From: Candidatus Magasanikbacteria bacterium RIFOXYC2_FULL_42_28
GTDB taxonomy: Bacteria; Patescibacteriota; Patescibacteriia; Magasanikbacterales; GWA2-37-8
Direction of reading: 5' to 3'
DNA: 64,000 nucleotides
Assembly: GCA_001784435.1 (NCBI GenBank)
Contig: MFQZ01000008.1
Location: 23,347-87,346 of the forward strand
The notes under the pieces are model-generated. The model saw only the letters and a list, made by a program, of their open reading frames with translations. It did no database searches and had not been told where the DNA came from. The position numbers and the translations under genes were made by a program. Below, piece after piece: positions 13,819 through 30,546 of the stretch (within the stretch, counting starts at the first letter, position 1; every line of letters begins with the position of its first letter).

Positions 13819-13822
13819 ACGC

Positions 13823-13965: not shown

Positions 13966-13990
13966 CCCCCGACTAAGTCGGGGGCTACAC

Positions 13991-14063
13991 GGTGCCTATA
14001 GTGTAATGGTTAGCACGAGAGATTGTGGATCTCTCAGAATGGGTTCAAATCCCATTAGGCACC
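13991..14063 (+). tRNA. tRNA-His (anticodon GTG) with the extra 5' G(-1)
   Basis: G-1 pairs with C73; acceptor GTGCCTA/TAGGCAC; anticodon loop TTGTGGA; T-loop TTCAAAT. Confidence 0.8.
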
Positions 14064-15734: not shown

Positions 15735-15818
15735 ATTATTTTCATTTTAATTTTGGCTAATAATTTTAGGCTTAGCTTTCAAACACAACATACGCTATTT
15801 TTGGCAACAAGCTAAGCG

Positions 15819-16253
15819 TTAGTTGCCCACAGGCTTTTTATTCTTGTATTTCTCTAAAATTTCCTCTATTTGACGACTACCTCTTTTGTATTCTTCGTCA
15901 TTACAATCATCATCTCTGCCTCCAGCCGGACCTCGGACAAAATCAAGAATGGTTTTGGCCGCTCGGAATTTCATGGCATCGCTTTTGGCGCCCATAAGAC
16001 TAACTAACATTTTGGATGCGGTCTCGGCGTGTTTCATTAGGACGGTATCGGTCTCTTTATCACGAACTTTATTTCTTTCTTTTTCGTATCGTTCGTACTC
16101 ATCCTTAAGTAAACCGTCTGACCGAAACCATCTCTTTACAGTAACGTGAGAGACTTTTAGCAGTTGGGCAATCTCTGAATAAGTAAAATCGCCGTATTTT
16201 AAGCGGATTGCATTCTGGTATTTTTCATTTTTTATGTCTACATTTTTTGCCAT
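15819..16253 (-). CDS. small HTH-domain protein (island cargo)
   Basis: YSEIAQLLKVSHVTVKRWF helix-turn-helix. Confidence 0.4.
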   Translation of the reverse strand: MAKNVDIKNEKYQNAIRLKYGDFTYSEIAQLLKVSHVTVKRWFRSDGLLKDEYERYEKERNKVRDKETDTVLMKHAETASKMLVSLMGAKSDAMKFRAAKTILDFVRGPAGGRDDDCNDEEYKRGSRQIEEILEKYKNKKPVGN

Positions 16254-16274
16254 TTGGGTATCATTTAGTATCTT

Positions 16275-17048
16275 TTAAAGGGTTAATAATTTATTGAAAT
16301 ATGCACCTCTATGCCGGATTTTGTCGCTTGGTTGATCCATTACAGACCGGTAGGCTTCCTCAATTCTTGCTAGTCCGTATTTCTTGAGAGATGATAAAAT
16401 AAAAGTCATATCTTTTTCTCCCAGCTCTTTGGCGATCTCCCAACATTTCTGTTCCTCATAAGACTTGGGAGTGAATTCTCTTACGGGTCGACCACGATTC
16501 GATCGGTTGTTTTTATTTTCTTTTTCGTTGTCGTTCTTGGAACTTCTGCCAAGCGAGCTTTCCGAACCGAAAGAAAACCTATCTACTAAAGCGTTTTTGT
16601 CACTTTCCAACTTCTGCCGAACGTCACTGACTTCTGTCGGTGCTTCTGCTGGTAATTGTGTATCAGTACCACCCTCACTTCTGCCATACTTCTGTTTGCT
16701 ACGGGTTTCAAGGTCTACAAAACCGCCATTTGATAAGGGGTAACGGGAGATATCAACATGGAACGAACTTCTGCGACCTTGCTGTATGGCAAACCATACC
16801 CACTTCTTACGCTTCAGGTTCAGCATCAGCCGATTGATGTGATTCTTGGAATACTTTTCTTTGAAGTCCTTGGAAAGTCCTGCGTAGCTGACATGAGCTT
16901 TTCCCATTCGTGGGTTGGCAGTGATCCATAACCAGACGAGGACCGAGTATTCCTCAAAACTCAAATAGCCGTCCACAAGGGCGGTCTTGATGCTTCGGGG
17001 AAGCTTTACGTAATCATTGTTATCTATTTCGAATGGCAAATTTTCCAT
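16275..17048 (-). CDS. hypothetical protein (island cargo; possible wHTH/replication-associated)
   Basis: ORF only; low-complexity basic middle region. Confidence 0.3.
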   Translation of the reverse strand: MENLPFEIDNNDYVKLPRSIKTALVDGYLSFEEYSVLVWLWITANPRMGKAHVSYAGLSKDFKEKYSKNHINRLMLNLKRKKWVWFAIQQGRRSSFHVDISRYPLSNGGFVDLETRSKQKYGRSEGGTDTQLPAEAPTEVSDVRQKLESDKNALVDRFSFGSESSLGRSSKNDNEKENKNNRSNRGRPVREFTPKSYEEQKCWEIAKELGEKDMTFILSSLKKYGLARIEEAYRSVMDQPSDKIRHRGAYFNKLLTL

Positions 17049-17067
17049 ATTTCATATTCAATTATTT

Positions 17068-17331
17068 TCAACTGATAGCGTCGTTATACATCAGTGATTT
17101 CAGCTCTTTGATCGCCAAGACAAATTCCTTGGCGTTCACGTCGGTATAACCTAAAAAATAACCCTCCACGAATTGGGGTCGTCCTGGTTGGTCAACAAAG
17201 ACAAAACGAAACCGGCGAGCATCGGTTTTATTTATACCAACAAGTTGGTATTTGTAGGCGAGCAAAAAAGCGGCCACATAGAAGTCGCTGGTAATAAAAT
17301 TATTGTCGGGTGTTTGGTTTTTCATATTCAT
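17068..17331 (-). CDS. DUF5659-like small protein, a type common in phage and mobile elements
   Basis: FYVAAFLLAYKYQLVGINKTDARRFRFVFVDQPG...FVLAIKELKSLMYN pattern recalled for DUF5659; not verified. Confidence 0.4.
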   Translation of the reverse strand: MNMKNQTPDNNFITSDFYVAAFLLAYKYQLVGINKTDARRFRFVFVDQPGRPQFVEGYFLGYTDVNAKEFVLAIKELKSLMYNDAIS

Positions 17332-17565
17332 TTTGATTATTAGATTGTTTTTCTTTCTCTTTTTGCTCGTAGCGATAATCCAAAAGTCGGACAATCAGAT
17401 CGGCTAATCTGTCCATGAAAATTTCCTCCATTTGAGCTGGGGTGAGGGGTGGTATTTTCTTTGTGATTATTGGCTTCGGCATATTGTTTGCCGGCCCGCA
17501 AATAAAAAAGCAGACCGTTTTCTTTCAGTCTGCTCTTTGCTGTCCGAATCAGGTCGGACTCCACC

Positions 17566-18162
17566 TTATCCAGCTTTGTAATCAATAAATATGCGCCTAA
17601 CTTTCCATTTCAAAAGCTTGTCTATCTCCAGCTTATGCTTCACTTTTTTATTTATCGCTCGCATAGCGTCATAGACACTGTCTTTGCTGTCTTTTGCCCA
17701 GTCCATTAAATCTAAAAAGTCTATTTCTTTGACCAGTGTGCCAAACGGGACTGCGAAAATAGTTTTGCATAGGAAGTATTGGTTGGTGTTAATCGGAATA
17801 GGGCAGGTTTTTCCTCCCATGTTTATTATTCCGGTTTTCTCATCAAACCTGATCTTAGTATCCACCGGCTTTTCCAGTTTTGGTTCAGGCTTGTCTTTCA
17901 GTTTGAAATAATAATCATTGAGCATGGACCGGCTCGGCTTAGAAACTACAAAGTCGCCGTCATCCAGTTTAAAGCTGGCAATAATCTTTTTCTTTTTCAG
18001 CTCGGTCATGACCGCCTTCTGTTCGGAAACATCCAGATCAGATATCGGGGAATTAAAATACACTTTTGCTGGTATTTTATGTGTGACGTCCGTGTAGGAT
18101 TCCACGCTCCCCAGCAGGGCATAAATAAAAACTAACTTTGCATTTTCATTTTTCATATTCAT
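17566..18162 (-). CDS. hypothetical protein (island cargo)
   Basis: ORF only. Confidence 0.3.
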   Translation of the reverse strand: MNMKNENAKLVFIYALLGSVESYTDVTHKIPAKVYFNSPISDLDVSEQKAVMTELKKKKIIASFKLDDGDFVVSKPSRSMLNDYYFKLKDKPEPKLEKPVDTKIRFDEKTGIINMGGKTCPIPINTNQYFLCKTIFAVPFGTLVKEIDFLDLMDWAKDSKDSVYDAMRAINKKVKHKLEIDKLLKWKVRRIFIDYKAG

Positions 18163-18512
18163 ATTCGTTAACGCCTCAACGAAAAGAGCTCGTGATCAAT
18201 TACCACAAAAAGTGATAACAATCACGAGCCCTTGAGCACGGAATACCATTCAGGTCGCCCCTTGAGGCGAAATTATTAAATTGTTGATTTTATTATAGCA
18301 CTGCTCAAAATTTCTCGGAAGTGTGTAAGGTGTTCGTTTTTCCGATATGAGACACTTTTGTCATATTGCTGAAACGGGGAGGATTGCTTGCTTTTATGGT
18401 CAAACTCGGTATATAATCTAGTGAATAGGAAGCAATATATGGTCTCCATTCACTAAATATTGACTTTTAAGTCGAAATCGCTTATACTAACCTTATAATT
18501 TTAACAAAACAT

Positions 18513-19415
18513 ATGGCTATAACAAAACCTATAAAAGACAGGCTTACAGCTCTAAAAAGCGAATATGACACCCTCCGCAAAGGCAAGGAGTCTCTTTTGG
18601 TGATGATTGACGAGGCCGAAGTGCCAGAAAGCGTCTATAACTCCAACGCTATTGAAAACTCCACCCTTACCCTCAAGGAAACTGAGAAGATCCTTTTGGA
18701 TATGGAGGTCTCCCGTGATGTTTCGTTGCGTGAAGTTTATGAGGCCAAAAACTTGGCTCGAGTTATCGGCTACATTCGCAACAAGAGTAAAGAAACGGAA
18801 ACTAACAAAGAGACAATCTTACTTTTGCATCAAATGCTTATCGGTGGCATCGACGACAAAATTGCCGGTCGTTTTAGAAAGCTCGGAGAATACGTCCGTG
18901 TTGGGACCCACGTTGCCCCAGCACCGGAACATGTTGAGAAAATGATTGAGGCAATCATCACTGAATACACCGGCGACCTCTCAAATTATTTCTTAGACAA
19001 GATCGCTAAATTCCATTTGGATTTTGAAACCGTTCACCCTTTCAACGATGGCAACGGCCGTATTGGTCGCGTGCTCATTTGTTTTCAGCTTCAGCGTCTT
19101 GGCTTTCCGATAATCATCATTCGTGATCGTGAAAAGAAAGAATACTATAAGTCATTTGCCGAATACCGTGATGAAAAAAACGCCAAAAATATGGAAAAGG
19201 TTATCGCCTTGGCTTTGATGGAATCATTGAGTAAGAGGATTACTTATCTCAAAGGTCAAAAGGTTATCACTTTGTCCGAGTATACAAAATTAAACAAACT
19301 ATCTGCCCCGGGCATGATTAACGCCGCTCGCCGTCAAAATATTCCGGCTTTCCGAGAGAAAGGTGTTTGGAAAATCGGCGAGGATTTTATTTATAACTCT
19401 CGCAAAGAAAAATAA
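18513..19415 (+). CDS. Fic-family protein (AMPylator/Doc-like)
   Basis: canonical Fic motif HPFNDGNGRIGR; TTGACT-18-TATACT promoter at 18460-18489. Confidence 0.8.
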   Translation: MAITKPIKDRLTALKSEYDTLRKGKESLLVMIDEAEVPESVYNSNAIENSTLTLKETEKILLDMEVSRDVSLREVYEAKNLARVIGYIRNKSKETETNKETILLLHQMLIGGIDDKIAGRFRKLGEYVRVGTHVAPAPEHVEKMIEAIITEYTGDLSNYFLDKIAKFHLDFETVHPFNDGNGRIGRVLICFQLQRLGFPIIIIRDREKKEYYKSFAEYRDEKNAKNMEKVIALALMESLSKRITYLKGQKVITLSEYTKLNKLSAPGMINAARRQNIPAFREKGVWKIGEDFIYNSRKEK

Positions 19416-19420
19416 AATAT

Positions 19421-21850
19421 ATGGCAATTAAAAAATCACAACTCTATAGCTCTATCTGGCAAGGATGCGACGAACTCCGTGGTGGTATGGATGCATCCCA
19501 GTATAAGGATTACGTCCTCGTGCTTTTGTTCGTTCGCTATGTCTCGGATAAATATGCCGGTAAGGCCAATCAGCTCGTAGACATTCCGGCTGGTGGCAGT
19601 TTTTCTGATTTGATAAAACTCAAAGGTAAACCGGATATCGGTGACGGGATCAATAAAGTTTTGAATAAGCTGGCCGAGGCCAATGGCTTGCAAGGTGTCA
19701 TCGATGCTGTTGATTTTAACGACGAAGACAAGCTTGGCAAAGGCAAGGACATGCAGGACCGCCTTTCCAATCTTATCGCTATCTTTGAAAATCCTGATTT
19801 AGATTTCAGCAAGAATCGTGCCGAAGGTGATGACCTCTTGGGCGATGCTTACGAATACTTGATGAAGCATTTCGCTGTTGAATCAGGAAAAAGCAAAGGA
19901 CAATTTTATACTCCGGCCGAAGTTTCTCGCATTATGGCCAAAGTGATTGAAGCTAACAAAGCCGACACCGGTATGCACACGGTTTACGATCCGACCTGCG
20001 GTTCCGGTTCACTTCTTTTGAAAGTCGCCGAGGAAGCTCAAAAAATTACAATCTACGGACAAGAGCTTGATAACGCTACTGCCGGACTCGCAACTCTTAA
20101 CATGTGGCTTCATGGCAAGCCCGAGGCTGAAATTAAGAAAGGTCAGAGCACGCTTTCTACTCCGCTTTTCACCGAACATAGTGCCCTCAAAACTTTTGAC
20201 TATGTCGTGGCCAATCCACCTTTTTCTTATAAGTCTTGGCGTAACGGCTTTGATCCTGATCACGATCAATACGGCCGTTTTGACGGCTTCGGTATTCCTC
20301 CCAAGAAAAATGGCGACTTCGCTTTTCTTTTGCATATTTTAAAGTCGCTCAAGAGTACTGGGACCGGTGCAGTCATTTTGCCTCATGGTGTTTTGTTCCG
20401 TGGCAATGCTGAAGCGGAAATTCGCAAAAATATTATTGAACGAGGATATATCAAAGGTATCATCGGCTTACCGGCCAACCTTTTCTACGGTACCGGCATT
20501 CCGGCGTGTATTATTGTTTTAGATAAAGCCGGAGCTAGTGATCGCAAAGGCATTTTTATGATTGATGCCTCCAAAGGTTTTGTTAAAGACGGTAATAAGA
20601 ATCGTTTGCGTGAGCAGGACATTCGCAAAATCGTGGACACTTGGAACGGCAAATTGGAAACCGCCAAGTTTTCTCGCTTTGTGGCCAATGAGGAGATAAA
20701 GAAAAACGAATATAACCTCAATCTCCCACGCTACATCGATACGCAAGAGCTGGAAGATATCCAAGACATCGAAGCACATCTCAAAGGTGGAATTCCTGAC
20801 GCTGACATTTCTGCTTTGTCCGCATATTGGGATATTTGCCCAACGCTTGAAAAATCTCTTTTCAAAGCCAATGGCCGAAAAGGATACAGCGAATTGCTTA
20901 TCGCTTCGGACGAAATAAAAAAGACTATTCTTACTCATCCGGAGTTTGAAGCTTTTAGAAAACAAACCCTGAATACTTTTGCCAAGTGGCAAAAAGCGTC
21001 AACTGATTTTCTCAAGAATATTGATACTGCCAATCATCCAAAAGCGGTCATTTATAAAATTGCCAGCGACCTGCTTTCAGCTTGTGCCAATCTCAAACTG
21101 GTTGATAAGTATGATATCTATCAGCACCTGATGGCTTATTGGGAAGAAGTGATGCAGGACGATACGCATATTATTACCATTGACGGCTGGAAAGCTGGCA
21201 AGGAAATAATCCGCTTACAAAAAGAAAATAAAGGCAAGAAAAAAGAGATTGAAGGACTTGTCGGTCTTGAAGGTCGCCTTATCCCGATCTCTTTGGCTAT
21301 CAAAACTTATTTTACCAAAGAGCAGAAAGCTCTTGATGATTTGAACGCTACCCTTGAACAGGTCGGCGTTGATATGGATTCGCTCAAAGACGAGCATGGC
21401 GGTGAGGAAGGCTTGCTCGAAGAAGTAATTGATAACGACAAAATCAGCAAGGCCAGTGTGCTTAAACGAATCAAAGAAATCAAAAACAGTGCGGACGATG
21501 TTGACGAGCTTGCTGTACTTGAAAAGTATTCAGCTTTGTTTGAAAAAGAAGCCGACACCAAGAAAGCGATCAAAGACGCCGAGAAAGACTTGGAGAAAAA
21601 AGTGCTGGTTAAATATCCGACTTTTACCGAAGCAGAAATCAAAACTTTGGTGGTTGAGAATAAATGGATGGACGAATTGTCTGCTCGAGTTTTAGGCGAA
21701 ATAGATCGTCTCTCCCAGACTCTCGCCGGCAGAGTTAAAGAATTAGCCGAGCGTTATGCCGAGCCAATGGCGGAAGTCACGAGCGAAGTGGAGACGCTTA
21801 CCAAAAAGGTTGAGGATCATCTCGCTAAGATGGGATTTAAGCTTAAATAA
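19421..21850 (+). CDS. hsdM: type I restriction-modification N6-adenine methyltransferase subunit with a roughly 300-aa coiled-coil C-terminal extension
   Basis: HsdM N-domain, AdoMet motif I (DPTCGSGSLL), motif IV NPPF; 809 aa. Confidence 0.9.
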   Translation: MAIKKSQLYSSIWQGCDELRGGMDASQYKDYVLVLLFVRYVSDKYAGKANQLVDIPAGGSFSDLIKLKGKPDIGDGINKVLNKLAEANGLQGVIDAVDFNDEDKLGKGKDMQDRLSNLIAIFENPDLDFSKNRAEGDDLLGDAYEYLMKHFAVESGKSKGQFYTPAEVSRIMAKVIEANKADTGMHTVYDPTCGSGSLLLKVAEEAQKITIYGQELDNATAGLATLNMWLHGKPEAEIKKGQSTLSTPLFTEHSALKTFDYVVANPPFSYKSWRNGFDPDHDQYGRFDGFGIPPKKNGDFAFLLHILKSLKSTGTGAVILPHGVLFRGNAEAEIRKNIIERGYIKGIIGLPANLFYGTGIPACIIVLDKAGASDRKGIFMIDASKGFVKDGNKNRLREQDIRKIVDTWNGKLETAKFSRFVANEEIKKNEYNLNLPRYIDTQELEDIQDIEAHLKGGIPDADISALSAYWDICPTLEKSLFKANGRKGYSELLIASDEIKKTILTHPEFEAFRKQTLNTFAKWQKASTDFLKNIDTANHPKAVIYKIASDLLSACANLKLVDKYDIYQHLMAYWEEVMQDDTHIITIDGWKAGKEIIRLQKENKGKKKEIEGLVGLEGRLIPISLAIKTYFTKEQKALDDLNATLEQVGVDMDSLKDEHGGEEGLLEEVIDNDKISKASVLKRIKEIKNSADDVDELAVLEKYSALFEKEADTKKAIKDAEKDLEKKVLVKYPTFTEAEIKTLVVENKWMDELSARVLGEIDRLSQTLAGRVKELAERYAEPMAEVTSEVETLTKKVEDHLAKMGFKLK

Positions 21851-21851
21851 T

Positions 21852-22604
21852 ATGGCAAATCTAACCACGAACGAAAAACAAATACTTGAGAAGCTATTCC
21901 AAATGAACGGTGGTTATGTTTTGAATTTCTCCGATAGGACTATGGGTGAATTTTTCAGGGATGATATTGGTATGGATATTTATAGTAAAAAGTATCTGTA
22001 CAGTAGTGGATCAAAGGCTAACCGTTTGAGAGGTTTGTGGTTGAATGGCGACGATAAAGTTGTCGGCAAGAGCGTTGTCAAGTTACTTGAATATGTTGAG
22101 AATCAAATCCTTATAGACAATCTTAAAAAGGAAGATTTTCCGGAGGACAGAATGAAAGCAGGCAAAAATGTTGCCGAGAGATTGTTGGGTAAAAAAACGG
22201 ATAAGAAAGAAAACAAGTCCGAAGCCACATTCAAAAACGGTAACATCAACATTCTTTTGCAGAAAGATATTTTTGACCACGTACAAAAACTTTTAAATGA
22301 CGGGCATTGTTTTAATGCTGTTGAGGAGGCTTACAAGGTTGTTAGAAAAAAATTGAAGGATGTTTCCGGCAAAGAAAAAGCGACTGACGCTTTTAGTGCC
22401 ACAAATTACGACAAGATTTTTGGTCACCAGCCTGTTGATGACGCAGAAAAAGACTTTTTCGAAGGTATTAAGTTTTTGCATATGGCCATCCAATTTTTGA
22501 GAAACGAGAAAGCCCACACACCAGCTCGTGATTTAGATAAGAATTTGGCTATCCATTACATCTCCCTAGCCAGCTTGGCCTACGATCTGATTAACAGGAA
22601 ATAA
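21852..22604 (+). CDS. RM-associated HEPN-like protein inserted between hsdM and hsdS
   Basis: C-terminal Rx4H motif (LRNEKAHT) in a predicted helical domain; ATG immediately after the hsdM stop. Confidence 0.45.
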   Translation: MANLTTNEKQILEKLFQMNGGYVLNFSDRTMGEFFRDDIGMDIYSKKYLYSSGSKANRLRGLWLNGDDKVVGKSVVKLLEYVENQILIDNLKKEDFPEDRMKAGKNVAERLLGKKTDKKENKSEATFKNGNINILLQKDIFDHVQKLLNDGHCFNAVEEAYKVVRKKLKDVSGKEKATDAFSATNYDKIFGHQPVDDAEKDFFEGIKFLHMAIQFLRNEKAHTPARDLDKNLAIHYISLASLAYDLINRK

Positions 22605-22605
22605 T

Positions 22606-23802
22606 ATGACAACAACTACACAAAAAATTCCATCAGGATATAAACAAACCGAGATCGGTGTGATTCCGGCCGATTGGGATGTCAAAAATTTAGGTAATGT
22701 TTGTGAAAAAATAACCACCGGAAAACTTAACGCCAATGCAATGGTTGAAGGTGGTGAGTATCGTTTTTATACGTGTGCCAAAGATTATTATCGAATAAAT
22801 CGTTATGCTTTTGATACTGAGGCACTGTTAGTTTCTGGTAATGGTGCAAATGTTGGATATGTACATTACTACAAAGGGAAATTTAATGCTTACCAAAGAA
22901 CGTATGTGCTATCTGATTTTTCAGCAGACATCCAATATATAAAATTATTTTTGGATAGAAATTTACAGGAAAGAATAAGAGTAGAAGTTAATGCAGGCAA
23001 TACCCCATATATCACAATGGGTACACTTACGGAAATGCAACTTGCAGTTCCTCCATTCAAAACTGAACAAACTGCAATTGCGACCACCATCTCCGATATA
23101 GGTATGTTGGTTGAAAAGTTTGAAAAATTAATTGGAAAGAAAAAGAATATCAAACAGGGTGTAATGCAGGAACTTCTTACTAAGAAGCGACGCCTTTCGG
23201 GATTTTCTAGTAAGTGGGAAACGAAAACCTTGGGTGATTTAGTTGATGTAAAAGACGGTACGCACCAAACACCAAGATATGTTGATGAGGGCGTACCTTT
23301 TTATAGTGTTGAAAGCGTTACCAGCAATGATTTTGAAAATACTAAATATATTAGTGAAACCGAACATAGACTATTAACCAAAAATTTCCGAATAGAAAAG
23401 GGTGATATTTTAATGACAAGAATCGGGTCTATTGGAGATTGCAAATTGATTACATGGGAACCGAATGCCAGTTTTTATGTGAGCTTGGCTTTGCTAAAAC
23501 CCAAAGATAAAAAGACCTCTCTTTATATCTACCATTTTTCTAAGACAGATTTCTTTAAAAAAGAATTAGAGGATAGATCCTTGCAATGGGCTGTGCCTAA
23601 AAAAATTAATCTCGGCGAGATTTCCAAAGTAAAAATTTATCTCCCAGTTGATCCTGAAGAACAAACCGCTATCGCCACTGTCTTGTCAGATATGGACACA
23701 GAAATTGAAAAACTGGAATCGCAACTTACCAAATACCAAAATATTAAACAAGGAATGATGCAAACACTTTTAACAGGCAAAATAAGATTACTTACAAAAT
23801 AA
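22606..23802 (+). CDS. hsdS: type I RM specificity subunit with two target-recognition domains
   Basis: central and C-terminal conserved repeats (QGVMQELLTKKRRL / QGMMQTLLTGKIRL). Confidence 0.85.
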   Translation: MTTTTQKIPSGYKQTEIGVIPADWDVKNLGNVCEKITTGKLNANAMVEGGEYRFYTCAKDYYRINRYAFDTEALLVSGNGANVGYVHYYKGKFNAYQRTYVLSDFSADIQYIKLFLDRNLQERIRVEVNAGNTPYITMGTLTEMQLAVPPFKTEQTAIATTISDIGMLVEKFEKLIGKKKNIKQGVMQELLTKKRRLSGFSSKWETKTLGDLVDVKDGTHQTPRYVDEGVPFYSVESVTSNDFENTKYISETEHRLLTKNFRIEKGDILMTRIGSIGDCKLITWEPNASFYVSLALLKPKDKKTSLYIYHFSKTDFFKKELEDRSLQWAVPKKINLGEISKVKIYLPVDPEEQTAIATVLSDMDTEIEKLESQLTKYQNIKQGMMQTLLTGKIRLLTK

Positions 23803-23806
23803 CAAT

Positions 23807-26800
23807 ATGGAAACACTAAACACAACTAAAGTCGGCCAGCTGGAACGCAAAACGCAAGATCGTATTGTGGCTTTGTTTCGTGATCGGCTTGGCTATGATT
23901 ATCTCGGCAACTTTGAAGAGCGAGAGGAAAACAACAATGTTGAAGAGGTCTATTTGCGCTCTTTTCTTTTGCGTTCCGGACACAGCGAAACTTTGATCAG
24001 CAAAGCCATTGAGAAGTTAAAGAAATGCACCAATCGTCCGCAGATGAGCTTGTATGATCTGAATAAAGAAACTTACAGCTTGCTTCGCTACAGTGCCAAA
24101 GAACGAGAGAAATTGGGAGAGCACAAGCAGGATGTTGAATTCATTGACTGGGAACATCCGGAGAATAATCATTTTGCGATTGCCGAGGAAGTGACGATCA
24201 AAGGCAACCGTACCAAACGGCCGGATATCGTGCTGTATGTAAACGGCATTGCTGTCGGTGTGATTGAACTCAAGCGAAGCATTGTTTCCGTGTCCGAAGG
24301 CATTCGCCAAAACATTGGCAATCAAAAAGAAGAATTTATCAAAACATTTTTCGGTACGATTCAGTTAGTTATGGCTGGTAATGACACTGAAGGTTTGCGT
24401 TATGGCACGACCGAAACTCCCGAACAACATTATTTGTCTTGGAAAGAGACAGGTCTCGGCAGTGAGTCCAGATTGGACCGAGCTATTTTGCAGATTTGCG
24501 ATAAGAAGCGTTTATTGGAAATTATCCACGACTTTATTGTTTTTGATAGCGGTATAAAAAAGACTTGCCGACATAATCAGTATTTTGGCGTTAAGGCCGC
24601 TCAGGATTATGTCAATCGTCACGAGGGTGGAATTGTTTGGCATACGCAAGGTAGTGGCAAGAGTTTGACGATGGTCTGGCTGGCTAAATGGATTCGCGAG
24701 AATATCAACGATGCTCGGGTGCTTTTACTTACCGACCGCACCGAACTTGATCAGCAAATCAAACAGGTTTTTGACGGCGTGAACGAAGAAATATATCGAG
24801 CACCAAGTGCCAGAGATTTATTGGACGAATTAAACAAAAAAGATAAGTGGTTGCTTTGTTCGCTCGTGCATAAATTTGGCCGAGTAAACGGGACCGGCGA
24901 GCTTGATGTTGATGACTATCTTTCAGAGATAAAGAAAAACTTGCCGAAGGACTTTTCTGCCAAAGGCAATTTGTTTGTGTTTGTGGATGAATGTCATCGC
25001 TCTCATACCGGCAAACTGCACGAAGCGATGAAGGAACTTTTGCCAACGGCAACATTCCTTGGCTTTACCGGCACTCCGCTTCTCAAGGTTGATAAATCAA
25101 ACAGCATCGGGGCGTTTGGACCGTATATCCATACTTATAAATATAACGAGGCCGTGGCCGACAAGGTGGTTTTGGATTTACGTTATGAAGCTCGCCGAGT
25201 TGATCAAAGTATCAGCTCCCAAGATAAGATCGACGAATGGTTTGAAGAACGCACCCAAGGGCTTACTGATGTCGCCAAAGCAGAACTCAAGCGACGTTGG
25301 GGTACGATGCAAAGTTTGCTCTCATCTCGATCACGACTGGAGAAAGTGGTTTTTGATATCTTAGATGACTTCTACAAAAAGGATCGCTTAGCCAGTGGTC
25401 GTGGCAATGCCATGCTCGTGGCCAGCAGTATCTATGAAGCTTGTCAGTATTATGAAATTTTCCAGACGATGGGCTTTACCAAGTGTGCCGTGGTGACTTC
25501 TTACGAACCCGGTGCTTTGTCTACCGATACTCGCGAATATGCGGTTTATCAGAAAATGTTAAACGGCAAGAGCACGGAAGATTTTGAGAAAGAAATCAAA
25601 AAGAAATTCATTGAAACTCCGGGTCAAATGCAACTGCTGATTGTGGTGGACAAACTTTTGACTGGTTTTGACGCACCGCCAGCTACTTATCTCTACATTG
25701 ATAAGAATATGCAGGATCACGGCTTGTTCCAAGCGATTTGTCGTGTGAACCGATTGGATGGCGAAGATAAAGAGTACGGCTATATTGTGGACTATCGGGA
25801 CCTATTCAAAAAACTAGAGAAAGCTGTCGGCGATTATACTGCCGGTGCTCTTGAGGGTTTTGATAAGGAAGACGTGCTCGGGCTTTTGAAGGATCGCATG
25901 GATGAAGGCAAAAAGGATTTGGATGAGGCAATGGAAATTGTGAAGGCACTTTGCGAGCCAGTCTCTCCGCCGAAAGATTCAGCCATGTATATCCGCTACT
26001 TCTGCGGTGATGTTGAAAACCCTTACTCCCTCAAAGAAAATGAAATCAAGCGAGTAAAACTTTATAAATCTGTCAGTCATTTGCTTCGAGCTTATGCCGA
26101 CTTGGCCAACGATATGGCTGATGCTGGTTATACCAAAGATCAGGCACAAGCGATTGAGCGAGAAGTTAGACACTACGAACAAGTACGAATGGAAGTTAAA
26201 CTTGCCAGCGGTGATTACATTGATCTGAAGAAATACGAACCGGCAATGCGAGTTTTGATTGACCGTTATATTTCGGCTACCGAAAGCGAGAAGTTGTCGG
26301 CTTTTGACGATATGACTTTGGTGGACTTAATTGTGAAGAAAGGTGAAGACGCTTTGAATGACTTGCCAGACGCTATTAAGCAAAGTCAGGAAGCGGTTGC
26401 CGAAACAATTGAGAACAACGTCCGCAAGCTGATCATTGATGAGATGCCGACTAACCCGAAGTATTATTTGCGAATGTCCGAACTCTTGGATGAGCTGGTC
26501 AAGAAACGCAAACAGGCTGACGTTGAGTATAAGGAATATTTAAAGCAGATTGTGGCTTTGTCCAAGAAAGTTAAAAACCCAATGGACGAGTCTGTTGGTG
26601 CGGAAATAAATACCTCTACTAAGCGAGCGATTTATGACAATCTTGGTCAGGATGTAAATAAGGCCGTGGCGGTGCATGAAGCCGTGATCGCTTCGAGGCA
26701 AGCCGACTGGCGTGGCAATCGTTTGAAAGAACGAGCAATCAAGATTGAAATCAAAAACGCTTTGCCCGAAATCACAGACGAGGAATTGAAAAACCTTTTT

Positions 26801-26830
26801 GAGATTATCAAGAATCAAAATGAGTACTAA
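23807..26830 (+). CDS. hsdR: type I restriction enzyme R subunit (SF2 helicase plus nuclease)
   Basis: Walker A QGSGKS, DECH box (FVDECHRSH), 1007 aa. Confidence 0.9.
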   Translation: METLNTTKVGQLERKTQDRIVALFRDRLGYDYLGNFEEREENNNVEEVYLRSFLLRSGHSETLISKAIEKLKKCTNRPQMSLYDLNKETYSLLRYSAKEREKLGEHKQDVEFIDWEHPENNHFAIAEEVTIKGNRTKRPDIVLYVNGIAVGVIELKRSIVSVSEGIRQNIGNQKEEFIKTFFGTIQLVMAGNDTEGLRYGTTETPEQHYLSWKETGLGSESRLDRAILQICDKKRLLEIIHDFIVFDSGIKKTCRHNQYFGVKAAQDYVNRHEGGIVWHTQGSGKSLTMVWLAKWIRENINDARVLLLTDRTELDQQIKQVFDGVNEEIYRAPSARDLLDELNKKDKWLLCSLVHKFGRVNGTGELDVDDYLSEIKKNLPKDFSAKGNLFVFVDECHRSHTGKLHEAMKELLPTATFLGFTGTPLLKVDKSNSIGAFGPYIHTYKYNEAVADKVVLDLRYEARRVDQSISSQDKIDEWFEERTQGLTDVAKAELKRRWGTMQSLLSSRSRLEKVVFDILDDFYKKDRLASGRGNAMLVASSIYEACQYYEIFQTMGFTKCAVVTSYEPGALSTDTREYAVYQKMLNGKSTEDFEKEIKKKFIETPGQMQLLIVVDKLLTGFDAPPATYLYIDKNMQDHGLFQAICRVNRLDGEDKEYGYIVDYRDLFKKLEKAVGDYTAGALEGFDKEDVLGLLKDRMDEGKKDLDEAMEIVKALCEPVSPPKDSAMYIRYFCGDVENPYSLKENEIKRVKLYKSVSHLLRAYADLANDMADAGYTKDQAQAIEREVRHYEQVRMEVKLASGDYIDLKKYEPAMRVLIDRYISATESEKLSAFDDMTLVDLIVKKGEDALNDLPDAIKQSQEAVAETIENNVRKLIIDEMPTNPKYYLRMSELLDELVKKRKQADVEYKEYLKQIVALSKKVKNPMDESVGAEINTSTKRAIYDNLGQDVNKAVAVHEAVIASRQADWRGNRLKERAIKIEIKNALPEITDEELKNLFEIIKNQNEY

Positions 26831-27545
26831 TTCTTATCTACAACTTGGCAGTGTTGAAGCATTGGTCGTCCGCAAGCCGATCAAGAATTTGCATCTTTCG
26901 GTTTTGCCTCCCAACGGTTGGGTGCGTGTCACTGCACCAGCAAATATGAAAGACGACGCTATCCGTACGCTCTTGGCTTTGAGATTGCCATGGATCAAGA
27001 AACAGCAAGCCAAATTTACTGGCCAAGAAAGGCAAACCAAGCGTGATTATTCCTCCGGTGAAAGCCATTACTTTTTTGGTAAACGCTATCGCCTTGAAGT
27101 GGTTTATAAAGACGAGGCACCTGTTGTTACCTTGAAAGGAAAAAATAAGATTATTTTACAGGTTCGACCGAAAAGTCCGGCGATCAAACGCCGAGAAGTG
27201 ATGATGGATTGGTATCGCAAGGAGTTGCACACGGTCGTTGATGAATTGATTGCCAAGTGGCAAAAGAAAATGGGCGTAGAGGTTAAATTTTGGGGTATTA
27301 AGCAGATGAAGACTCGTTGGGGTACCTGCAATCACAAGCGAGCTCGAGTCTTGATAAACCTAGAGCTAGCCAAAAAGCCGATCGCTTGCGTGGAGTATGT
27401 CGTAGTCCACGAGCTTTTGCATTTGATTGAGAAAAAACACAGCGACAAATTTGTCGCCCTAATGGCAAAATACATTCCGAAATGGAAAGGCATAAAAGAG
27501 GAACTGAACAGTTTTATTTTGTCGTACGAGGAGTGGAAGTATTAG
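26820..27545 (+). CDS. YgjP/DUF45-type (M48-like) zinc metallopeptidase, a type commonly linked to hsdR
   Basis: HExxH motif (VVVHELLHLIE); start overlaps the hsdR stop. Confidence 0.6.
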   Translation: MSTNSYLQLGSVEALVVRKPIKNLHLSVLPPNGWVRVTAPANMKDDAIRTLLALRLPWIKKQQAKFTGQERQTKRDYSSGESHYFFGKRYRLEVVYKDEAPVVTLKGKNKIILQVRPKSPAIKRREVMMDWYRKELHTVVDELIAKWQKKMGVEVKFWGIKQMKTRWGTCNHKRARVLINLELAKKPIACVEYVVVHELLHLIEKKHSDKFVALMAKYIPKWKGIKEELNSFILSYEEWKY

Positions 27546-27616
27546 TCTTGACTAGTAAAAATAGGCTGTAATTTGCTATCGAAAAATTTTCGATAAACTG
27601 ATATAATTATTGTAGT

Positions 27617-28687
27617 ATGAAATCACAATCCTCAAAAATTAAAGTCGTTGATTTATTTTGTGGCATTGGTGGACTGACTCACGGTCTTATCAAGGAGGGT
27701 TTAGATGTGGTGGCAGGAATTGATAACGATTCAAGTTGTAAATTTGGTTATGAATACAACAACAAGGCTCAATTTATTGATAGCGACATTCTTAAGGTAA
27801 CACCTGATCAAATAAATAAATTATTTGGTACAAAAAAGGGCACAATACGTGTTCTTGCTGGTTGTGCCCCTTGCCAGCCATTTTCAAGATTGAATCTAAA
27901 AAAAGTCACCGAAAAACAACTTGAGCCACTGGGTAAATTTGCTCAACTTATTGCGACTGTTCAGCCAGACATTGTCTCAATGGAAAATGTTAGTGGTTTA
28001 GCTGACACAAATAAATACCCCGTCTTTGCTAAATTTATAAAGACTCTGGAGGATAACGGATATAAATATAAATATGAAGTGGTAGATGTCTCAGAATTTG
28101 GCGTACCTCAAAAACGAAAACGATTAGTTTTATTGGCCTCAAAGTTTGGTGAAATTGAATTGATAAAAAGAACTCACAAAGACAAGCGAGTTACTGTTCG
28201 TGATGTTATAAAACACCTTGAACCAATCAAAGATGGTCAAACAAGTAAAAAAGACCCTCTTCATAAGGCAAGAAAACTTGATCCAATAAATCTTGATCGA
28301 ATCAAGGCGACTCCACATAATGGCGGGAATTCAGAAAGTTGGAGTGAAGATTTAATGCTTGATTGCCACAAAAAAGCTTCAGGAAAGACTTATCGAAGTA
28401 CCGTTTATGGCCGAATGAGATGGGACGAACCAGCACCGACTATGACAACTCAATGCATAGGTTTAGGGAATGGTCGTTTTGGTCACCCAACACAAAATCG
28501 TGCTATAAGTTTAAGGGAGGCCGCAATATTTCAAACATTCCCTGAAAATTATAAATTTACCGAGTCCGAAGACTCTATGGTGGTTACTAAAGTGGCAAAG
28601 TTTATTGGAAACGCAGTACCAGTAAGGCTGGGATCAGTCATTGGCAAGAGTATCAAGAATCACCTCAAATATTATGAAAAACAATAA
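27617..28687 (+). CDS. DNA (cytosine-5) methyltransferase
   Basis: motif I DLFCGIGG, motif IV GCAPCQPFS, motif VI ENV (SMENV). Confidence 0.85.
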   Translation: MKSQSSKIKVVDLFCGIGGLTHGLIKEGLDVVAGIDNDSSCKFGYEYNNKAQFIDSDILKVTPDQINKLFGTKKGTIRVLAGCAPCQPFSRLNLKKVTEKQLEPLGKFAQLIATVQPDIVSMENVSGLADTNKYPVFAKFIKTLEDNGYKYKYEVVDVSEFGVPQKRKRLVLLASKFGEIELIKRTHKDKRVTVRDVIKHLEPIKDGQTSKKDPLHKARKLDPINLDRIKATPHNGGNSESWSEDLMLDCHKKASGKTYRSTVYGRMRWDEPAPTMTTQCIGLGNGRFGHPTQNRAISLREAAIFQTFPENYKFTESEDSMVVTKVAKFIGNAVPVRLGSVIGKSIKNHLKYYEKQ

Positions 28688-30347
28688 TGATAATTTCTCT
28701 TTTGAGATTTCACTGAGCGTTTTGAATCACTTAGGAAGAAATCTGTACAGAAGTTTTGCTACAGTTCTCGGAGAAGCAATCTCTAATGCATGGGATGCTG
28801 ACGCAAAAAATGTCTCAATCTATATCAACAAGAAAGGCAACAGCTTTTTTATCAAAGATGACGGAGTTGGTATGACAAGTGATGATTTTCAAAATAAGTT
28901 TTTGAAAATTGGATACTCAAAGAGAAAAGATGGCGGTTCTGCTTCTCCCAAGGGCAGACCTTATATAGGCAGGAAAGGTATCGGTAAATTAGCTTTGCTG
29001 TCTTGTGCGGACAAAATAACCGTTATATCAAAAACTAAATCCAGCAAGTACATTGGTGGTGTCATTGATAACTCCGGTTTAGACAAAGCAATAACAGAAG
29101 ATCTTACTCCCAAGGAGTATTCTCTTGGATCATGGACAGAAAGCACTTTTGCCACCCATACAAAAGATCATAAACATGGCACAATAATTTATTTTGAAGG
29201 TATCAAGGACGGTATACAAAACAGCTTAGAGTTTTTGAAAAAGATTGTTGCTTTGTATTTTCGTTTTTCACTTTTAGATAAAACATTCAATATCTTTATT
29301 GATGGCGAAAAAATCACACATGAATCCCTTAATGATCTTGCTGAAAAAACAGAGTTTTTATGGAAAATAAATGAACACAAGGATCCTTACGTTCAAAGTC
29401 TTGAAAAGAGATTTACTCCAGAAAAAAACGAGCAAAGAGACATCGTCCTTAAAGGTACTAAAGTGAAGGGGTTTATTGCGTCAGTTGAACGACCAAGAGA
29501 TCTTAAAATAATGACGACAGAGGAAAGAATCGGAATCGACCTTTTTGTAAATGGAAGATTGCGAGAAAGAGATATCCTCAAACATATACCAACATCTCGA
29601 GTGGCCGAGAATTATTTGTATGGACAGATTCACTTCAATGAGCTTGATAGTGGCGATGATATATTTACTAGTAGCCGAGAGGGTGTGGTTGCTGATGATC
29701 CAAAATATAAAAAGTTTCTAGATACTCTGCGAAAAAGTGTGATATTAAAAATTGTTGAGGATTGGGACAAATGGAGAATAGCCCACAGGAAGGATGGCGA
29801 TTCAGAAAACGAGAGAATGACCCCTCGAGATAGAAAATCAATGGAGTTATTTAATACCGTTTCCAAAGAATATACAGTTACAGGAAAATCAAAACATAAA
29901 AAGAAAATTGACACATGGGTTAATGATCTTGCTGATGACGCTCAATACAATTTTGGCTCTTATGCGGAATGTTTTGTATCAGAAAATTTAATCAGAAATT
30001 ATATTGGCGAAAAGAAAATAACCTTGTCAAAGGAAGCAAAAACAGAAATTGCGAAATGGAAAAAAGTAGAAACGGAGTCTAAAAATAAAGGCAATGTTAG
30101 TATTGGTATCCGCAAAAATAATAGTGATTTGAGCTATCTATCTATGAATGATCTCGCATACCTTGTAGATAAAGCAAAAGATCCAACTAAAGAGGCTTGT
30201 CTTGCGAGAGATGCAAACGAGTATAAGCCAATTCGAGACTCGCTTGCTCACACAGCACTTCTAACTGATGCGGCGAAAAAGAAGTTAACCTCGGTTTATG
30301 AAAATATCAAAGGCAGACTCATTACATTACTGTCTGGGAAGGCCTAA
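28674..30347 (+). CDS. GHKL-superfamily (HATPase_c, MORC/MutL-like) ATPase with a large C-terminal domain of unknown function; 14-nt overlap with the upstream m5C methyltransferase gene
   Basis: N-box EAISNAWDA, G1 box DDGVGM, G2-like GRKGIGKLAL. Confidence 0.6.
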   Translation: MKNNNDNFSFEISLSVLNHLGRNLYRSFATVLGEAISNAWDADAKNVSIYINKKGNSFFIKDDGVGMTSDDFQNKFLKIGYSKRKDGGSASPKGRPYIGRKGIGKLALLSCADKITVISKTKSSKYIGGVIDNSGLDKAITEDLTPKEYSLGSWTESTFATHTKDHKHGTIIYFEGIKDGIQNSLEFLKKIVALYFRFSLLDKTFNIFIDGEKITHESLNDLAEKTEFLWKINEHKDPYVQSLEKRFTPEKNEQRDIVLKGTKVKGFIASVERPRDLKIMTTEERIGIDLFVNGRLRERDILKHIPTSRVAENYLYGQIHFNELDSGDDIFTSSREGVVADDPKYKKFLDTLRKSVILKIVEDWDKWRIAHRKDGDSENERMTPRDRKSMELFNTVSKEYTVTGKSKHKKKIDTWVNDLADDAQYNFGSYAECFVSENLIRNYIGEKKITLSKEAKTEIAKWKKVETESKNKGNVSIGIRKNNSDLSYLSMNDLAYLVDKAKDPTKEACLARDANEYKPIRDSLAHTALLTDAAKKKLTSVYENIKGRLITLLSGKA

Positions 30348-30366
30348 CTAAAGTAAATATGGGTTA

Positions 30367-30546
30367 TGGCCAACGATAACGATCCAATCAAAGACGACCC
30401 AGATGAAGAAGCTCCGGACGAGGAAGTCGCTGAGCTTATGGAAACCCACGATCTTGATAAAGACACGGCCGAGCGTGTGCAGGAGATCATGGAAGATTTG
30501 GGTGTGGACGAAGATGACGCCGTTGAGATCGAGGAGAGTCTTTAGT
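30367..30546 (+). CDS. 59-aa highly acidic small protein (MANDNDPIKDDPDEEAPDEE...)
   Basis: ORF below the 60-aa track cutoff, found by reading the sequence; ATG at 30367, TAG at 30544. Confidence 0.3.

What the first reader, a model, noticed from the sequence alone, without database searches (positions are those of the whole stretch)
21852..22604. HEPN-like ORF inserted between hsdM and hsdS of the type I RM operon
A 251-aa ORF starts 2 nt after the hsdM stop and ends 2 nt before hsdS, so it is translationally coupled inside the RM operon. Its C-terminus carries an Rx4H motif (LRNEKAHT) in a helical context, as in HEPN RNases (RM-associated HEPN families such as DUF4145 / TIGR02391, from memory).

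This suggests an abortive-infection/RNase back-up layer built into the type I system.
Basis: partly seen in the sequence, partly recalled or inferred. Interest (0 to 1): 0.6.

Follow-up and report, generated by a model that had tools for sequence, protein, structure and literature searches.

The report
Optional HEPN toxin cassette in restriction operon

Summary
The ORF is real. It spans 21852-22604 (+) and encodes 250 aa. One nucleotide separates it from the hsdM stop, and one separates its own stop from the hsdS start.

Residues 136-249 pass the curated cut-offs of TIGR02391 (88.6 bits) and Pfam PF09509 Hypoth_Ymh (52.2 bits). Anantharaman et al. 2013 classed this family as HEPN and noted that it occurs in R-M operons. 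The RNEKAH motif (R217, N218, H222) is invariant in 50 distinct orthologous genes.

Residues 1-112 form a second domain with no Pfam model. It occurs in 1,703 protein clusters, fused to AbiJ-type HEPN, TIR, DUF4145, Mrr, PLD and kinase effectors. That is the fusion spectrum published for "AbiJ-NTD1/2".

The gene is an optional cassette with ORF-precise boundaries. In sister operons (HsdM mostly 73-98% identical) the hsdM-hsdS junction is empty (about 25 loci), holds Ymh (about 10) or holds another small gene (about 10). The same protein also sits inside type III, EcoRI-like MTase/GmrSD and non-RM loci.

The most likely function is a self-contained sensor plus RNase abortive-infection module that is co-expressed with RM. 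It is probably not a PrrC-style partner specific to type I enzymes. No RNase activity or defence was shown here or in the papers I could search.

Verdict: new member of a known kind. Interest is low to moderate.

The parts
21852..22604 (+). The gene itself: a 250-aa two-domain TIGR02391/Ymh family protein (stop codon included in the coordinates).
   Evidence: ORF and sequence. More than 1,500 homologues; the best 120 are full length and 76-93% identical. Strong purifying selection.
21852..22187 (+). N-terminal domain, aa 1-112. AbiJ-NTD1/2-like sensor or adaptor module with conserved motifs GYVLNFSDRT and SGSKANRLRGLW.
   Evidence: No Pfam, NCBIfam, PADLOC or PHROG model matches it. Present in 1,703 representative clusters and almost always N-terminal. 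Fused to Abi_C, TIR, DUF4145, Mrr, PLD, kinase and other effectors. AF2 pLDDT is above 90. On plasmids it sits in proteins annotated 'abortive infection family protein' and 'restriction endonuclease'.
22188..22256 (+). Linker (aa 113-123, low confidence) followed by a predicted beta-hairpin (aa 124-135) that precedes the HEPN domain.
   Evidence: AF2 model 2: pLDDT is below 50 at residues 115-119, with strands at 124-128 and 131-135. F127, G130, N131 and I132 are invariant among close relatives.
22257..22601 (+). C-terminal Ymh (TIGR02391/PF09509) domain, aa 136-250: the predicted HEPN RNase domain.
   Evidence: HMM matches above the curated cut-offs. All-helical model with helices at 138-149, 153-172, 177-190, 197-221 and 230-248. 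The best compact PDB matches are HEPN proteins, but they are weak.
22500..22517 (+). RNEKAH (R217-N218-E-K-A-H222), the Rx4H motif and predicted catalytic site.
   Evidence: Read directly from the sequence. R217, N218 and H222 are invariant in 72 diverse family members and in 50 distinct genes from the fetched loci.
21848..21854 (+). Upstream junction TAA-T-ATG: hsdM stop, 1 nt, Ymh start.
   Evidence: The same ORF-precise junction occurs in sister operons, and the empty site reads ...GAAA TAA TT ATG(hsdS).
22602..22608 (+). Downstream junction TAA-T-ATG: Ymh stop, 1 nt, hsdS start. An AGGA Shine-Dalgarno-like sequence lies inside the end of the Ymh gene.
   Evidence: In 41 of 47 evaluable loci a co-directional ORF starts within 8 nt of the Ymh stop, whatever that ORF encodes.
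18513..19415 (+). Context: Fic/DOC-family gene, first gene of the operon.
   Evidence: PF02661, 69.9 bits. PADLOC PDC-S04 and SoFic. Its presence does not depend on whether Ymh is present.
19421..21850 (+). Context: hsdM (809 aa).
   Evidence: PF02384 and PF12161; TIGR00497; PADLOC MTase_I, 1197 bits.
22606..23802 (+). Context: hsdS (398 aa).
   Evidence: PF01420, two stretches. Only about 37% identical in operons that are otherwise 96-99% identical.
23807..26830 (+). Context: hsdR (1007 aa).
   Evidence: TIGR00348, 537 bits; PADLOC REase_I, 1377 bits.
26799..27545 (+). Context: YgjP-like metallopeptidase gene that overlaps the end of hsdR; last gene of the inferred transcription unit.
   Evidence: PF01863, 203 bits. 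Conserved in the same position in sister operons.

Best explanation
The gene encodes a self-contained, single-polypeptide abortive-infection-type module made of two parts.
- The N-terminal part is a widely reused sensor or adaptor domain of the AbiJ-NTD1/2 type.
- The C-terminal part is a Ymh-family HEPN domain. Its invariant R217/N218/H222 residues would form a metal-independent RNase site, probably across a HEPN dimer interface.

Proposed mechanism:
1. The gene is co-transcribed and translationally coupled with the restriction operon, so it is made whenever the RM system is made.
2. The RNase is held inactive by the N-terminal domain.
3. An infection cue switches it on.
4. It then cuts cellular and/or phage RNA and stops growth. 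This acts as a second line of defence when restriction fails.

It is a portable, optional cassette that occupies a variable slot at the hsdM-hsdS junction. It is not a dedicated subunit of the type I enzyme.

Shown here: domain identity, motif invariance, purifying selection, operon coupling, presence/absence polymorphism, promiscuity of context, and promiscuity of N-terminal domain fusions.

Inferred: RNase activity, autoinhibition, the trigger, toxicity and defence.
For: - Family membership is above curated cut-offs. The family is classed as HEPN with a conserved Rx4-6H motif and linked to R-M operons (PMC3710099).
- The motif is invariant.
- Constraint is strong on both domains.
- The N-terminal domain is fused to many alternative effectors: Abi_C 18, TIR_2 17, TIR 8, DUF4145 6, Mrr 5, and also PLD, kinase and CHAT. 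This is the sensor-plus-swappable-effector pattern of Abi-like proteins. It matches the published AbiJ-NTD1/2 fusion list, which includes Ymh fusions.
- The same protein is embedded in non-homologous RM types and in some non-RM loci. This argues for autonomous action.
- The slot in sister operons is empty, filled by Ymh, or filled by other small genes. Two of those look HEPN-like: L078 with an RNAFAH motif (motif only) and L087 with a sub-threshold AbiJ_NTD4 match.
- Genes embedded in type I RM systems are often independent defence systems, and one embedded HEPN protein was validated with a mutant of the motif histidine (preprint 10.1101/2024.01.29.577857).
- Lactococcal AbiJ, the namesake of the N-terminal domain class, is an experimentally demonstrated Abi protein (PMC13064643).
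Against: - No experiment on any Ymh/TIGR02391 protein was found.
- The protein matches no PADLOC model.
- My profile-profile test against AbiJ-type HEPN domains was not significant.
- Both domains are unusually conserved for a phage sensor. That fits a conserved ligand or host target better than a fast-evolving phage protein.
- The gene nearly always sits immediately upstream of another gene (41 of 47 loci). This could mean a functional tie to its neighbours that a purely autonomous model does not explain.
Confidence: 0.55

Rival explanations
1. PrrC-style latch. The HEPN RNase binds the type I HsdM/S/R complex, which keeps it silent. It is released when a phage anti-restriction factor inactivates the enzyme.
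For: - The gene sits inside the hsdM-hsdS-hsdR operon with 1-nt spacers, as prrC sits inside EcoprrI.
- The 2013 paper proposes this analogy for RM-linked HEPN genes in general.
- Tight coupling to the downstream gene is conserved.
Against: - The same protein, 60-98% identical with synonymous sites saturated, is embedded in type III mod-res operons, EcoRI-like MTase/GmrSD-HNH operons, ISP-like operons and loci without RM genes. A specific contact with HsdM/S/R is therefore unlikely.
- It lacks the ABC ATPase domain of PrrC.
- About half of the near-identical type I operons work without it.
Confidence: 0.15
2. Addiction or stabilisation toxin. The RNase acts as a post-segregational killer that stabilises the mobile defence island, not as a phage sensor.
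For: - The operon lies on an apparent integrative island next to tRNA-His, with a large serine recombinase.
- HEPN toxins are common in toxin-antitoxin modules (PMC3710099).
- In many loci a 65-aa HTH gene directly precedes Ymh. It could be an antitoxin or a controller.
Against: - No antitoxin candidate (MNT or HTH) is adjacent in this window.
- Fic does not co-vary with Ymh.
- The N-terminal domain is a reused module fused to many effectors, which points to regulated activation within one polypeptide.
Confidence: 0.08
3. Operon-internal regulator. The protein processes the polycistronic RM transcript, or its translation sets the level of the downstream gene product (HsdS, Mod or the MTase). 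It would tune methylation against restriction and would not kill the cell.
For: - The gene is nearly always immediately upstream of, and coupled to, another gene (41 of 47 loci). That gene is often the methyltransferase or the specificity subunit.
Against: - Sister operons function with hsdS coupled directly to hsdM.
- The downstream partners are unrelated to one another: HsdS, EcoRI-like MTase, Mod, Res, RadC and DUF4145.
- The N-terminal domain is otherwise fused to classical killing effectors such as TIR, PLD and REase.
Confidence: 0.07
4. Non-catalytic HEPN. The C-terminal domain binds a nucleotide or a protein but does not cleave RNA, as in some HEPN families.
For: - Several HEPN families are non-catalytic (PMC3710099, Table 1).
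- No activity data exist for Ymh.
Against: - R217, N218 and H222 are invariant over saturated synonymous divergence.
- The 2013 table lists the motif as conserved ('Yes') in the Ymh family.
Confidence: 0.05

Closest known systems
Ymh / TIGR02391 / PF09509 HEPN family, including the AbiJ-NTD1/2-Ymh fusions described by Anantharaman, Makarova, Burroughs, Koonin and Aravind 2013 (PMC3710099)
   Same: The C-terminal domain matches the family models above their cut-offs. The Rx4H motif is conserved. The gene lies in an R-M operon. The N-terminal module has the published AbiJ-NTD fusion spectrum, and a DOC/Fic gene is in the same operon, as in the paper's 'three-level defence'.
   Different: Nothing essential differs. 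Three things are new here. First, this subfamily is centred on Patescibacteria. Second, the gene is shown to be an optional, ORF-precise occupant of the hsdM-hsdS junction. Third, one orthologous group serves type I, II-like and III operons. Which N-terminal domain it is (NTD1 or NTD2) could not be checked against the authors' alignments.
PrrC-EcoprrI (anticodon nuclease embedded in a type Ic RM operon)
   Same: Both are HEPN-type RNase genes nested inside an hsdMSR operon, and both are proposed as a back-up when restriction is defeated.
   Different: PrrC has an N-terminal ABC ATPase and is latched by its cognate RM complex. This protein has an unrelated 112-aa N-terminal domain. It also occurs with unrelated RM types and without RM.
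Lactococcal AbiJ (Abi_C/PF14355 HEPN with an AbiJ N-terminal domain)
   Same: Both are single-polypeptide Abi proteins of about 250-290 aa, with an N-terminal module followed by a C-terminal HEPN domain. 18 of the 150 closest carriers of this N-terminal domain have an Abi_C C-terminus.
   Different: The C-terminal HEPN domain here is Ymh (RNxxAH), not Abi_C (RNxxSxAH type). I found no significant profile-profile link between them. Which N-terminal domain L. lactis AbiJ itself carries was not determined.
HEC-08 and other 'embedded' defence genes (Payne et al. 2024 preprint, 10.1101/2024.01.29.577857)
   Same: Both are single genes nested inside a multi-gene defence system. HEC-08 is a HEPN protein whose defence depends on the motif histidine.
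   Different: HEC-08 has a DUF3644 HEPN domain plus zinc ribbons, and it was found in Hma systems. The Ymh family is not in that paper's held supplements, and the protein matches no model of the PADLOC library used here.
HepT-MntA (HEPN-MNT type VII toxin-antitoxin)
   Same: Both have a HEPN Rx4H RNase as the toxin.
   Different: There is no MNT partner here. The Fic AMPylase in the operon does not co-vary with Ymh.

Membership tests
TIGR02391 / Pfam PF09509 (Hypoth_Ymh) | Match to the family HMM above the curated cut-off | tested here: met
   TIGR02391: 88.6 bits against 39.45, residues 136-249 covering model positions 1-122 of 125. PF09509: 52.2 bits against 25. Public records name the homologues 'TIGR02391 family protein'.
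HEPN superfamily | Conserved Rx4-6H motif with a polar residue after R | tested here: met
   RNEKAH. R217, N218 and H222 are invariant in 72 diverse members and in 50 distinct genes.
HEPN superfamily | Four-helix up-and-down bundle fold similar to solved HEPN domains | tested here: inconclusive
HEPN superfamily | Profile-level sequence link to other HEPN families | tested here: inconclusive
   Local hhalign against AbiJ-type C-terminal domains gave E=0.23. The alignment still places RNEK-AH on RNxxSxAH over 97 columns. The published link rests on the 2013 HHpred/PSI-BLAST analysis.
HEPN superfamily | Metal-independent endoribonuclease activity | not testable with these tools
   Needs biochemistry. 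No published assay of a Ymh protein was found.
AbiJ-NTD1/2 (N-terminal modules of Anantharaman et al. 2013) | N-terminal module of about 100-140 aa, shared between AbiJ-family HEPN proteins and other effectors (DUF4145, Ymh, Mrr REase, HKD/PLD, kinase, deoxyribosyltransferase, TIR) | tested here: met
   The fusion spectrum among the 150 closest carriers matches this list (one search compared). The module is N-terminal in nearly all of them.
AbiJ-NTD1/2 (N-terminal modules of Anantharaman et al. 2013) | Direct sequence match to the authors' reference sequences or alignment | not testable with these tools
   The held supplement is only an index page. No Pfam model for NTD1 or NTD2 matched. Pfam models for NTD3 and NTD4 exist (seen) and do not match this domain.
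AbiJ family proper (Abi_C, PF14355) | C-terminal Abi_C HEPN domain | tested here: not met
   The C-terminus matches PF09509, not PF14355.
PrrC/RloC anticodon nucleases | N-terminal ABC (Rad50/SbcC-like) ATPase fused to the HEPN domain | tested here: not met
   No ATPase domain is present. The N-terminal domain is a 112-aa helical module with no P-loop family match.
HEPN-MNT (HepT/MntA) toxin-antitoxin | Adjacent minimal nucleotidyltransferase antitoxin gene | tested here: not met
   The neighbours are hsdM and hsdS. Fic in the operon is independent of Ymh.

The most novel reading that the evidence does not exclude
The hsdM-hsdS junction of this operon family is a dedicated, ORF-precise 'expansion slot' that exchanges single-gene abortive-infection cassettes. 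The Ymh cassette would be an RM-type-agnostic sentinel. Its extremely conserved N-terminal domain (near-invariant G-x-V-L-x-F and S-K-A-x3-R-x2-W positions across the 150 closest representatives of its 1,703 clusters) would sense a universal cue. That cue could be a nucleotide, a nucleic-acid end, or a conserved host factor perturbed whenever any restriction system is overwhelmed, as opposed to a particular phage protein. If so, this would define a common trigger for a very large, uncharacterised class of N-terminal-domain-plus-effector immune proteins.
Probability: 0.15. Interest if true: 0.55.

Novelty: new member of a known kind. Interest (0 to 1): 0.25.

Why it matters
It confirms that a sequence-only reading can correctly pick out a toxin-type defence gene nested in a restriction operon.

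The wider value is modest but real:
- The Ymh/TIGR02391 family is large. I found more than 1,500 close relatives of this subfamily alone, and no experimental study of any member.
- This locus offers a clean natural experiment. Near-identical operons exist with the slot empty, filled by Ymh, or filled by other small genes. This gives matched constructs for testing whether embedded HEPN genes add a second defence layer.
- The N-terminal module (1,703 clusters, no Pfam model) is fused to TIR, HEPN, REase, PLD and kinase effectors. Finding its trigger would inform many predicted immune proteins at once.
- It adds to the evidence that Patescibacteria, with their tiny genomes, invest in layered, mobile defence islands.

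Tried and rejected
1. Sequence searches against solved structures found nothing usable. These used the protein, the family profile and a profile from the 150 N-terminal-domain carriers. The only hits were noise at E>=0.07.

2. Fold searches:
- Foldseek against PDB gave no hit at E<=1e-3 for either model.
- The viral BFVD library gave nothing.
- No fold assignment is possible for the N-terminal domain.

3. Local hhalign of the Ymh C-terminal domain against AbiJ-type and 'RDFRNYIH'-type C-terminal domains was not significant.

4. PADLOC and PHROGs gave no match for the protein. Only 1 of 2.9 million viral contigs encodes it, so it is not a phage gene.

5. I tested whether the operon's Fic AMPylase is the neutralising partner of the HEPN domain, by analogy with MntA-HepT. 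I rejected this because Fic is present or absent independently of what occupies the slot.

6. I tested whether the neighbouring GHKL ATPase protein (28641-30347), which has RDSLAH near its C-terminus, is a paraMORC-Ymh fusion as described in 2013. No similarity was detected by Pfam, BLASTP, hmmsearch or hhalign.

7. I tested whether conserved DNA repeats at the cassette ends indicate a site-specific insertion mechanism. Both junctions do share AAATAAT-ATG. However, this is equally expected from stop/start coupling in AT-rich genes. Exchange by homologous recombination through the conserved hsdM 3' end and hsdS 5' end explains the data, so I make no claim of a dedicated mechanism.

8. The 2013 paper's supplement holds no alignments. 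The 2024 embedding preprint's supplements do not mention Ymh, PF09509 or TIGR02391.

Full report
**Observation.** The ORF exists as described. The hsdM stop codon is at 21848-21850 and a single T follows. The ORF runs from ATG 21852 to TAA 22602-22604, another single T follows, and hsdS starts at 22606. The product is 250 aa. The mechanical ORF list shows a longer 282-aa version starting at 21756 inside hsdM. That version is an artefact, because every homologue begins MANLTT at the 21852 ATG. RNEKAH occupies nt 22500-22517 (residues 217-222).

**Flanking genes.** The neighbours are a standard type I system: HsdM (PF02384/TIGR00497), HsdS (PF01420) and HsdR (TIGR00348). A Fic/DOC gene precedes them and a YgjP-like metallopeptidase gene follows. 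The best promoter-like sites on the + strand lie just upstream of Fic, and there is no convincing internal terminator. This fits one Fic-to-YgjP transcription unit, although the site counts do not exceed shuffled controls.

**C-terminal half.** Residues 136-249 match TIGR02391 (88.6 bits, cut-off 39.45, E=3.3e-25) and Pfam PF09509 Hypoth_Ymh (52.2 bits, cut-off 25). Anantharaman et al. 2013 (PMC3710099) list Ymh (PF09509) among the HEPN families. They describe it as having the Rx4-6H motif conserved, as occurring solo or fused to paraMORC, AbiJ-NTD1 and AbiTii, and as found 'in operon with R-M'.

R217, N218 and H222 are invariant in an alignment of 72 family members down to about 37% identity. 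They are also invariant in 50 distinct genes recovered from genomes.

My independent tests of the HEPN fold are only weakly supportive:
- The second AlphaFold model is good (mean pLDDT 87.3) and its C-terminal domain is all-helical.
- Foldseek found no PDB hit at E<=1e-3. The only compact, high-probability match is the HEPN protein 2hsb (probability 0.85, TM 0.54 over 116 columns). The poorer first model also weakly matched the HEPN proteins 2q00, 4nqf, 1o3u and Csx1.
- A local hhalign against AbiJ-type HEPN domains was not significant, although it lines up the two motifs.

HEPN superfamily membership therefore rests mainly on the motif and the published profile analysis.

**N-terminal half.** It matches no Pfam, NCBIfam, PADLOC or PHROG model and no solved structure.

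An exhaustive search with this domain alone found 1,703 representative clusters. The domain is nearly always at the N-terminus, on proteins of 94-679 aa. Pfam scans of the 150 best carriers show it fused to Abi_C (the AbiJ HEPN; 18 proteins), TIR_2 (17) and TIR (8), DUF4145 (6), Mrr (5), CAP12-type TIR (4), SEFIR (4), Ymh (3), CHAT, PLD, protein kinase and nucleoside deoxyribosyltransferase. This is the fusion list published for AbiJ-NTD1 and AbiJ-NTD2, and that list explicitly includes Ymh fusions. On plasmids the domain sits in proteins annotated 'abortive infection family protein' and 'restriction endonuclease'.

I could not align it to the authors' reference sequences, because the held supplement is only an index page. 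The assignment to NTD1 or NTD2 is therefore an inference from architecture. The overall design, a reused N-terminal module followed by a swappable killing effector, is that of single-polypeptide Abi or immune sensors.

**Relatives and their contexts.** The full-length protein has more than 1,500 detectable homologues, and the best 120 are 76-93% identical over all 250 residues. They come mostly from Patescibacteria MAGs, with scattered Omnitrophota, Elusimicrobiota, Margulisbacteria, Planctomycetia and others.

The high identity is not due to recent transfer. Synonymous sites are saturated in most pairs while pN stays at 0.03-0.28. In the one unsaturated comparison (L017), dN/dS is 0.07 for the N-terminal domain and 0.004 for the C-terminal domain.

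The contexts are strikingly varied:
- About 16 of the 61 genome loci are type I operons, and 12 of these have hsdM directly upstream.
- 14 loci have Ymh directly upstream of an EcoRI-like methyltransferase and a GmrSD/HNH gene, often preceded by a 65-aa HTH gene.
- Others are type III operons (mod-Ymh-res or Ymh-mod-res).
- Others are ISP-like: Ymh followed by an HsdR-like gene and an MTase/S fusion.
- Some have a RadC-OLD-MutH group, a DUF4145 HEPN gene or a PD-(D/E)XK nuclease as neighbours, with no methyltransferase.

In 41 of 47 evaluable loci a co-directional gene starts within 8 nt of the Ymh stop. In 26 of 46 a co-directional gene ends within 8 nt of its start.

**Is it an insertion?** Yes. 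A metagenome scan seeded with the HsdM C-terminus recovered 51 sister operons. Where the junction could be read, it falls into three classes:
- In about 25 loci hsdS follows hsdM directly.
- In about 10 loci the junction holds Ymh.
- In about 10 loci it holds a different ORF of 178-280 aa. These include one with its own RNAFAH motif (L078), one with a sub-threshold AbiJ_NTD4 match and a GIRHHND C-terminal motif (L087), a Bro-N protein (L101), a membrane protein (L089) and two families with no match.

At nucleotide level the empty site reads ...GAAA TAA TT ATG(hsdS). The filled site adds exactly one ORF with its own AAA TAA T spacer. The hsdM 3' end and the first codons of hsdS are conserved, whereas HsdS as a whole is only about 37% identical in operons whose other genes are 96-99% identical. 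The simplest reading is cassette and specificity-domain exchange by homologous recombination through those conserved flanks. I found no evidence for a dedicated insertion mechanism.

**Mechanism.** The best-supported model is an autonomous sensor-RNase module that is co-expressed with RM as a second layer (confidence about 0.55).

The PrrC-type alternative is a nuclease latched by its cognate type I enzyme. It is weakened because one tightly conserved orthologous group serves non-homologous RM types and some non-RM loci, because half of the sister operons lack the gene, and because the PrrC ATPase domain is absent.

I also tested whether the operon's Fic AMPylase might neutralise the HEPN domain as MntA neutralises HepT. 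Fic presence is independent of slot content, so I rejected this.

Two features are not fully explained by the autonomous model. First, both domains are unusually conserved for a phage sensor. Second, the gene is almost always coupled to a downstream gene. The first suggests a conserved ligand or host target. The second suggests that co-expression with the neighbouring system matters.

RNase activity, toxicity, the trigger and defence are all inferred. No experimental paper on any Ymh/TIGR02391 protein turned up.

**Comparison with what is known, and novelty.** The interpretation 'RNase back-up layer in an RM operon' is the hypothesis of the 2013 HEPN paper. That paper even describes DOC + HEPN + RM operons as three-level defence. 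The general principle that genes embedded in type I RM, BREX, DISARM and Hma systems are defence genes has experimental support, including a HEPN example that depends on its motif histidine (preprint 10.1101/2024.01.29.577857). Ymh does not appear in that study's held supplements, and the protein matches no model in the PADLOC library used here.

This locus is therefore a new member of a known kind. The new details are the Patescibacteria-centred subfamily, the ORF-precise optional slot with alternative occupants, and the use of one orthologue across RM types.

**Verdict.** Interest is 0.25.

Noticed in passing
window 13746-31100: The RM operon sits on what looks like a 16.8-kb integrative island. 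From left to right it holds tRNA-Arg and tRNA-His (13746-14066), a large serine recombinase (14055-15734, minus strand), an HTH gene, a DUF5659 gene and unknown small genes, then the plus-strand defence cargo, and finally a host glycosyltransferase gene (31115-31843). GC skew is positive only between 18 and 30 kb. An exact 17-bp direct repeat, ATCTTGGATTTTGATTT, occurs at 14155 and 30996 (expected by chance about 6e-5) and does not extend further. It is a candidate att core.
   Followed up: partly
window 22606-23802; L015-L017, L078-L085: HsdS is only about 35-40% identical in operons whose Fic, HsdM, Ymh, HsdR and YgjP are 96-99% identical, while its first codons are conserved. This is classic specificity-subunit (TRD) swapping. 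Several sister loci have split or frameshifted hsdS genes (L082, L086, L088).
   Followed up: partly
window 28641-30347 (+): A 568-aa GHKL ATPase (HATPase_c_3; PADLOC 'REase_II'; phrog_6203) lies downstream of a Dcm methylase gene (27617-28687). It has an RDSLAH (Rx4H) motif about 40 residues from its C-terminus. The 2013 paper describes paraMORC-Ymh fusions, but no similarity to Ymh or to any HEPN Pfam family was detected, so this remains a motif only.
   Followed up: partly
L078:4648-5349, L087:5086-5928, L089:5755-6291, L091:5508-6272, L092:1914-2579, L101:5767-6606: These are alternative occupants of the same hsdM-hsdS slot in sister operons. They include a 233-aa protein with an RNAFAH motif and no Pfam match, a 280-aa AbiJ_NTD4-like protein (below the Pfam threshold), a 178-aa membrane protein, a protein family of about 253 aa and another of 221 aa with no Pfam match, and a Bro-N/DinD-like protein. 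Several may be uncharacterised defence genes.
   Followed up: partly
window 26799-27545 (+): A YgjP-like zinc metallopeptidase gene overlaps the last ~30 nt of hsdR. It is conserved in that position in sister operons (58-97% identity). It is a constant fifth gene of this type I operon family, and its role is unknown.
   Followed up: no
L013:4141-12525: One Margulisbacteria operon carries Ymh between hsdM and hsdS. It also has an 847-aa AAA_13/SMC_N ABC ATPase, which is in the position and size range of PrrC/RloC-like proteins, between hsdS and hsdR. SMODS and DUF6602 genes lie just upstream. This would make several putative abortive modules in one operon. I did not check the ATPase for a HEPN domain.
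   Followed up: no
L001:8753-13067: No gene is called in a 4.3-kb stretch immediately downstream of the Ymh gene on a 371-kb contig. I did not examine it.
   Followed up: no
window 21852-22187 (protein aa 1-112): The N-terminal module has no Pfam or NCBIfam model and no solved relative, even though it occurs in 1,703 clusters at 50% identity. It has near-invariant positions G21, V23, L24, F26, F34, S54, K55, A56, R60 and W63. It is a large uncharacterised domain family that would merit a model and a structure.
   Followed up: partly
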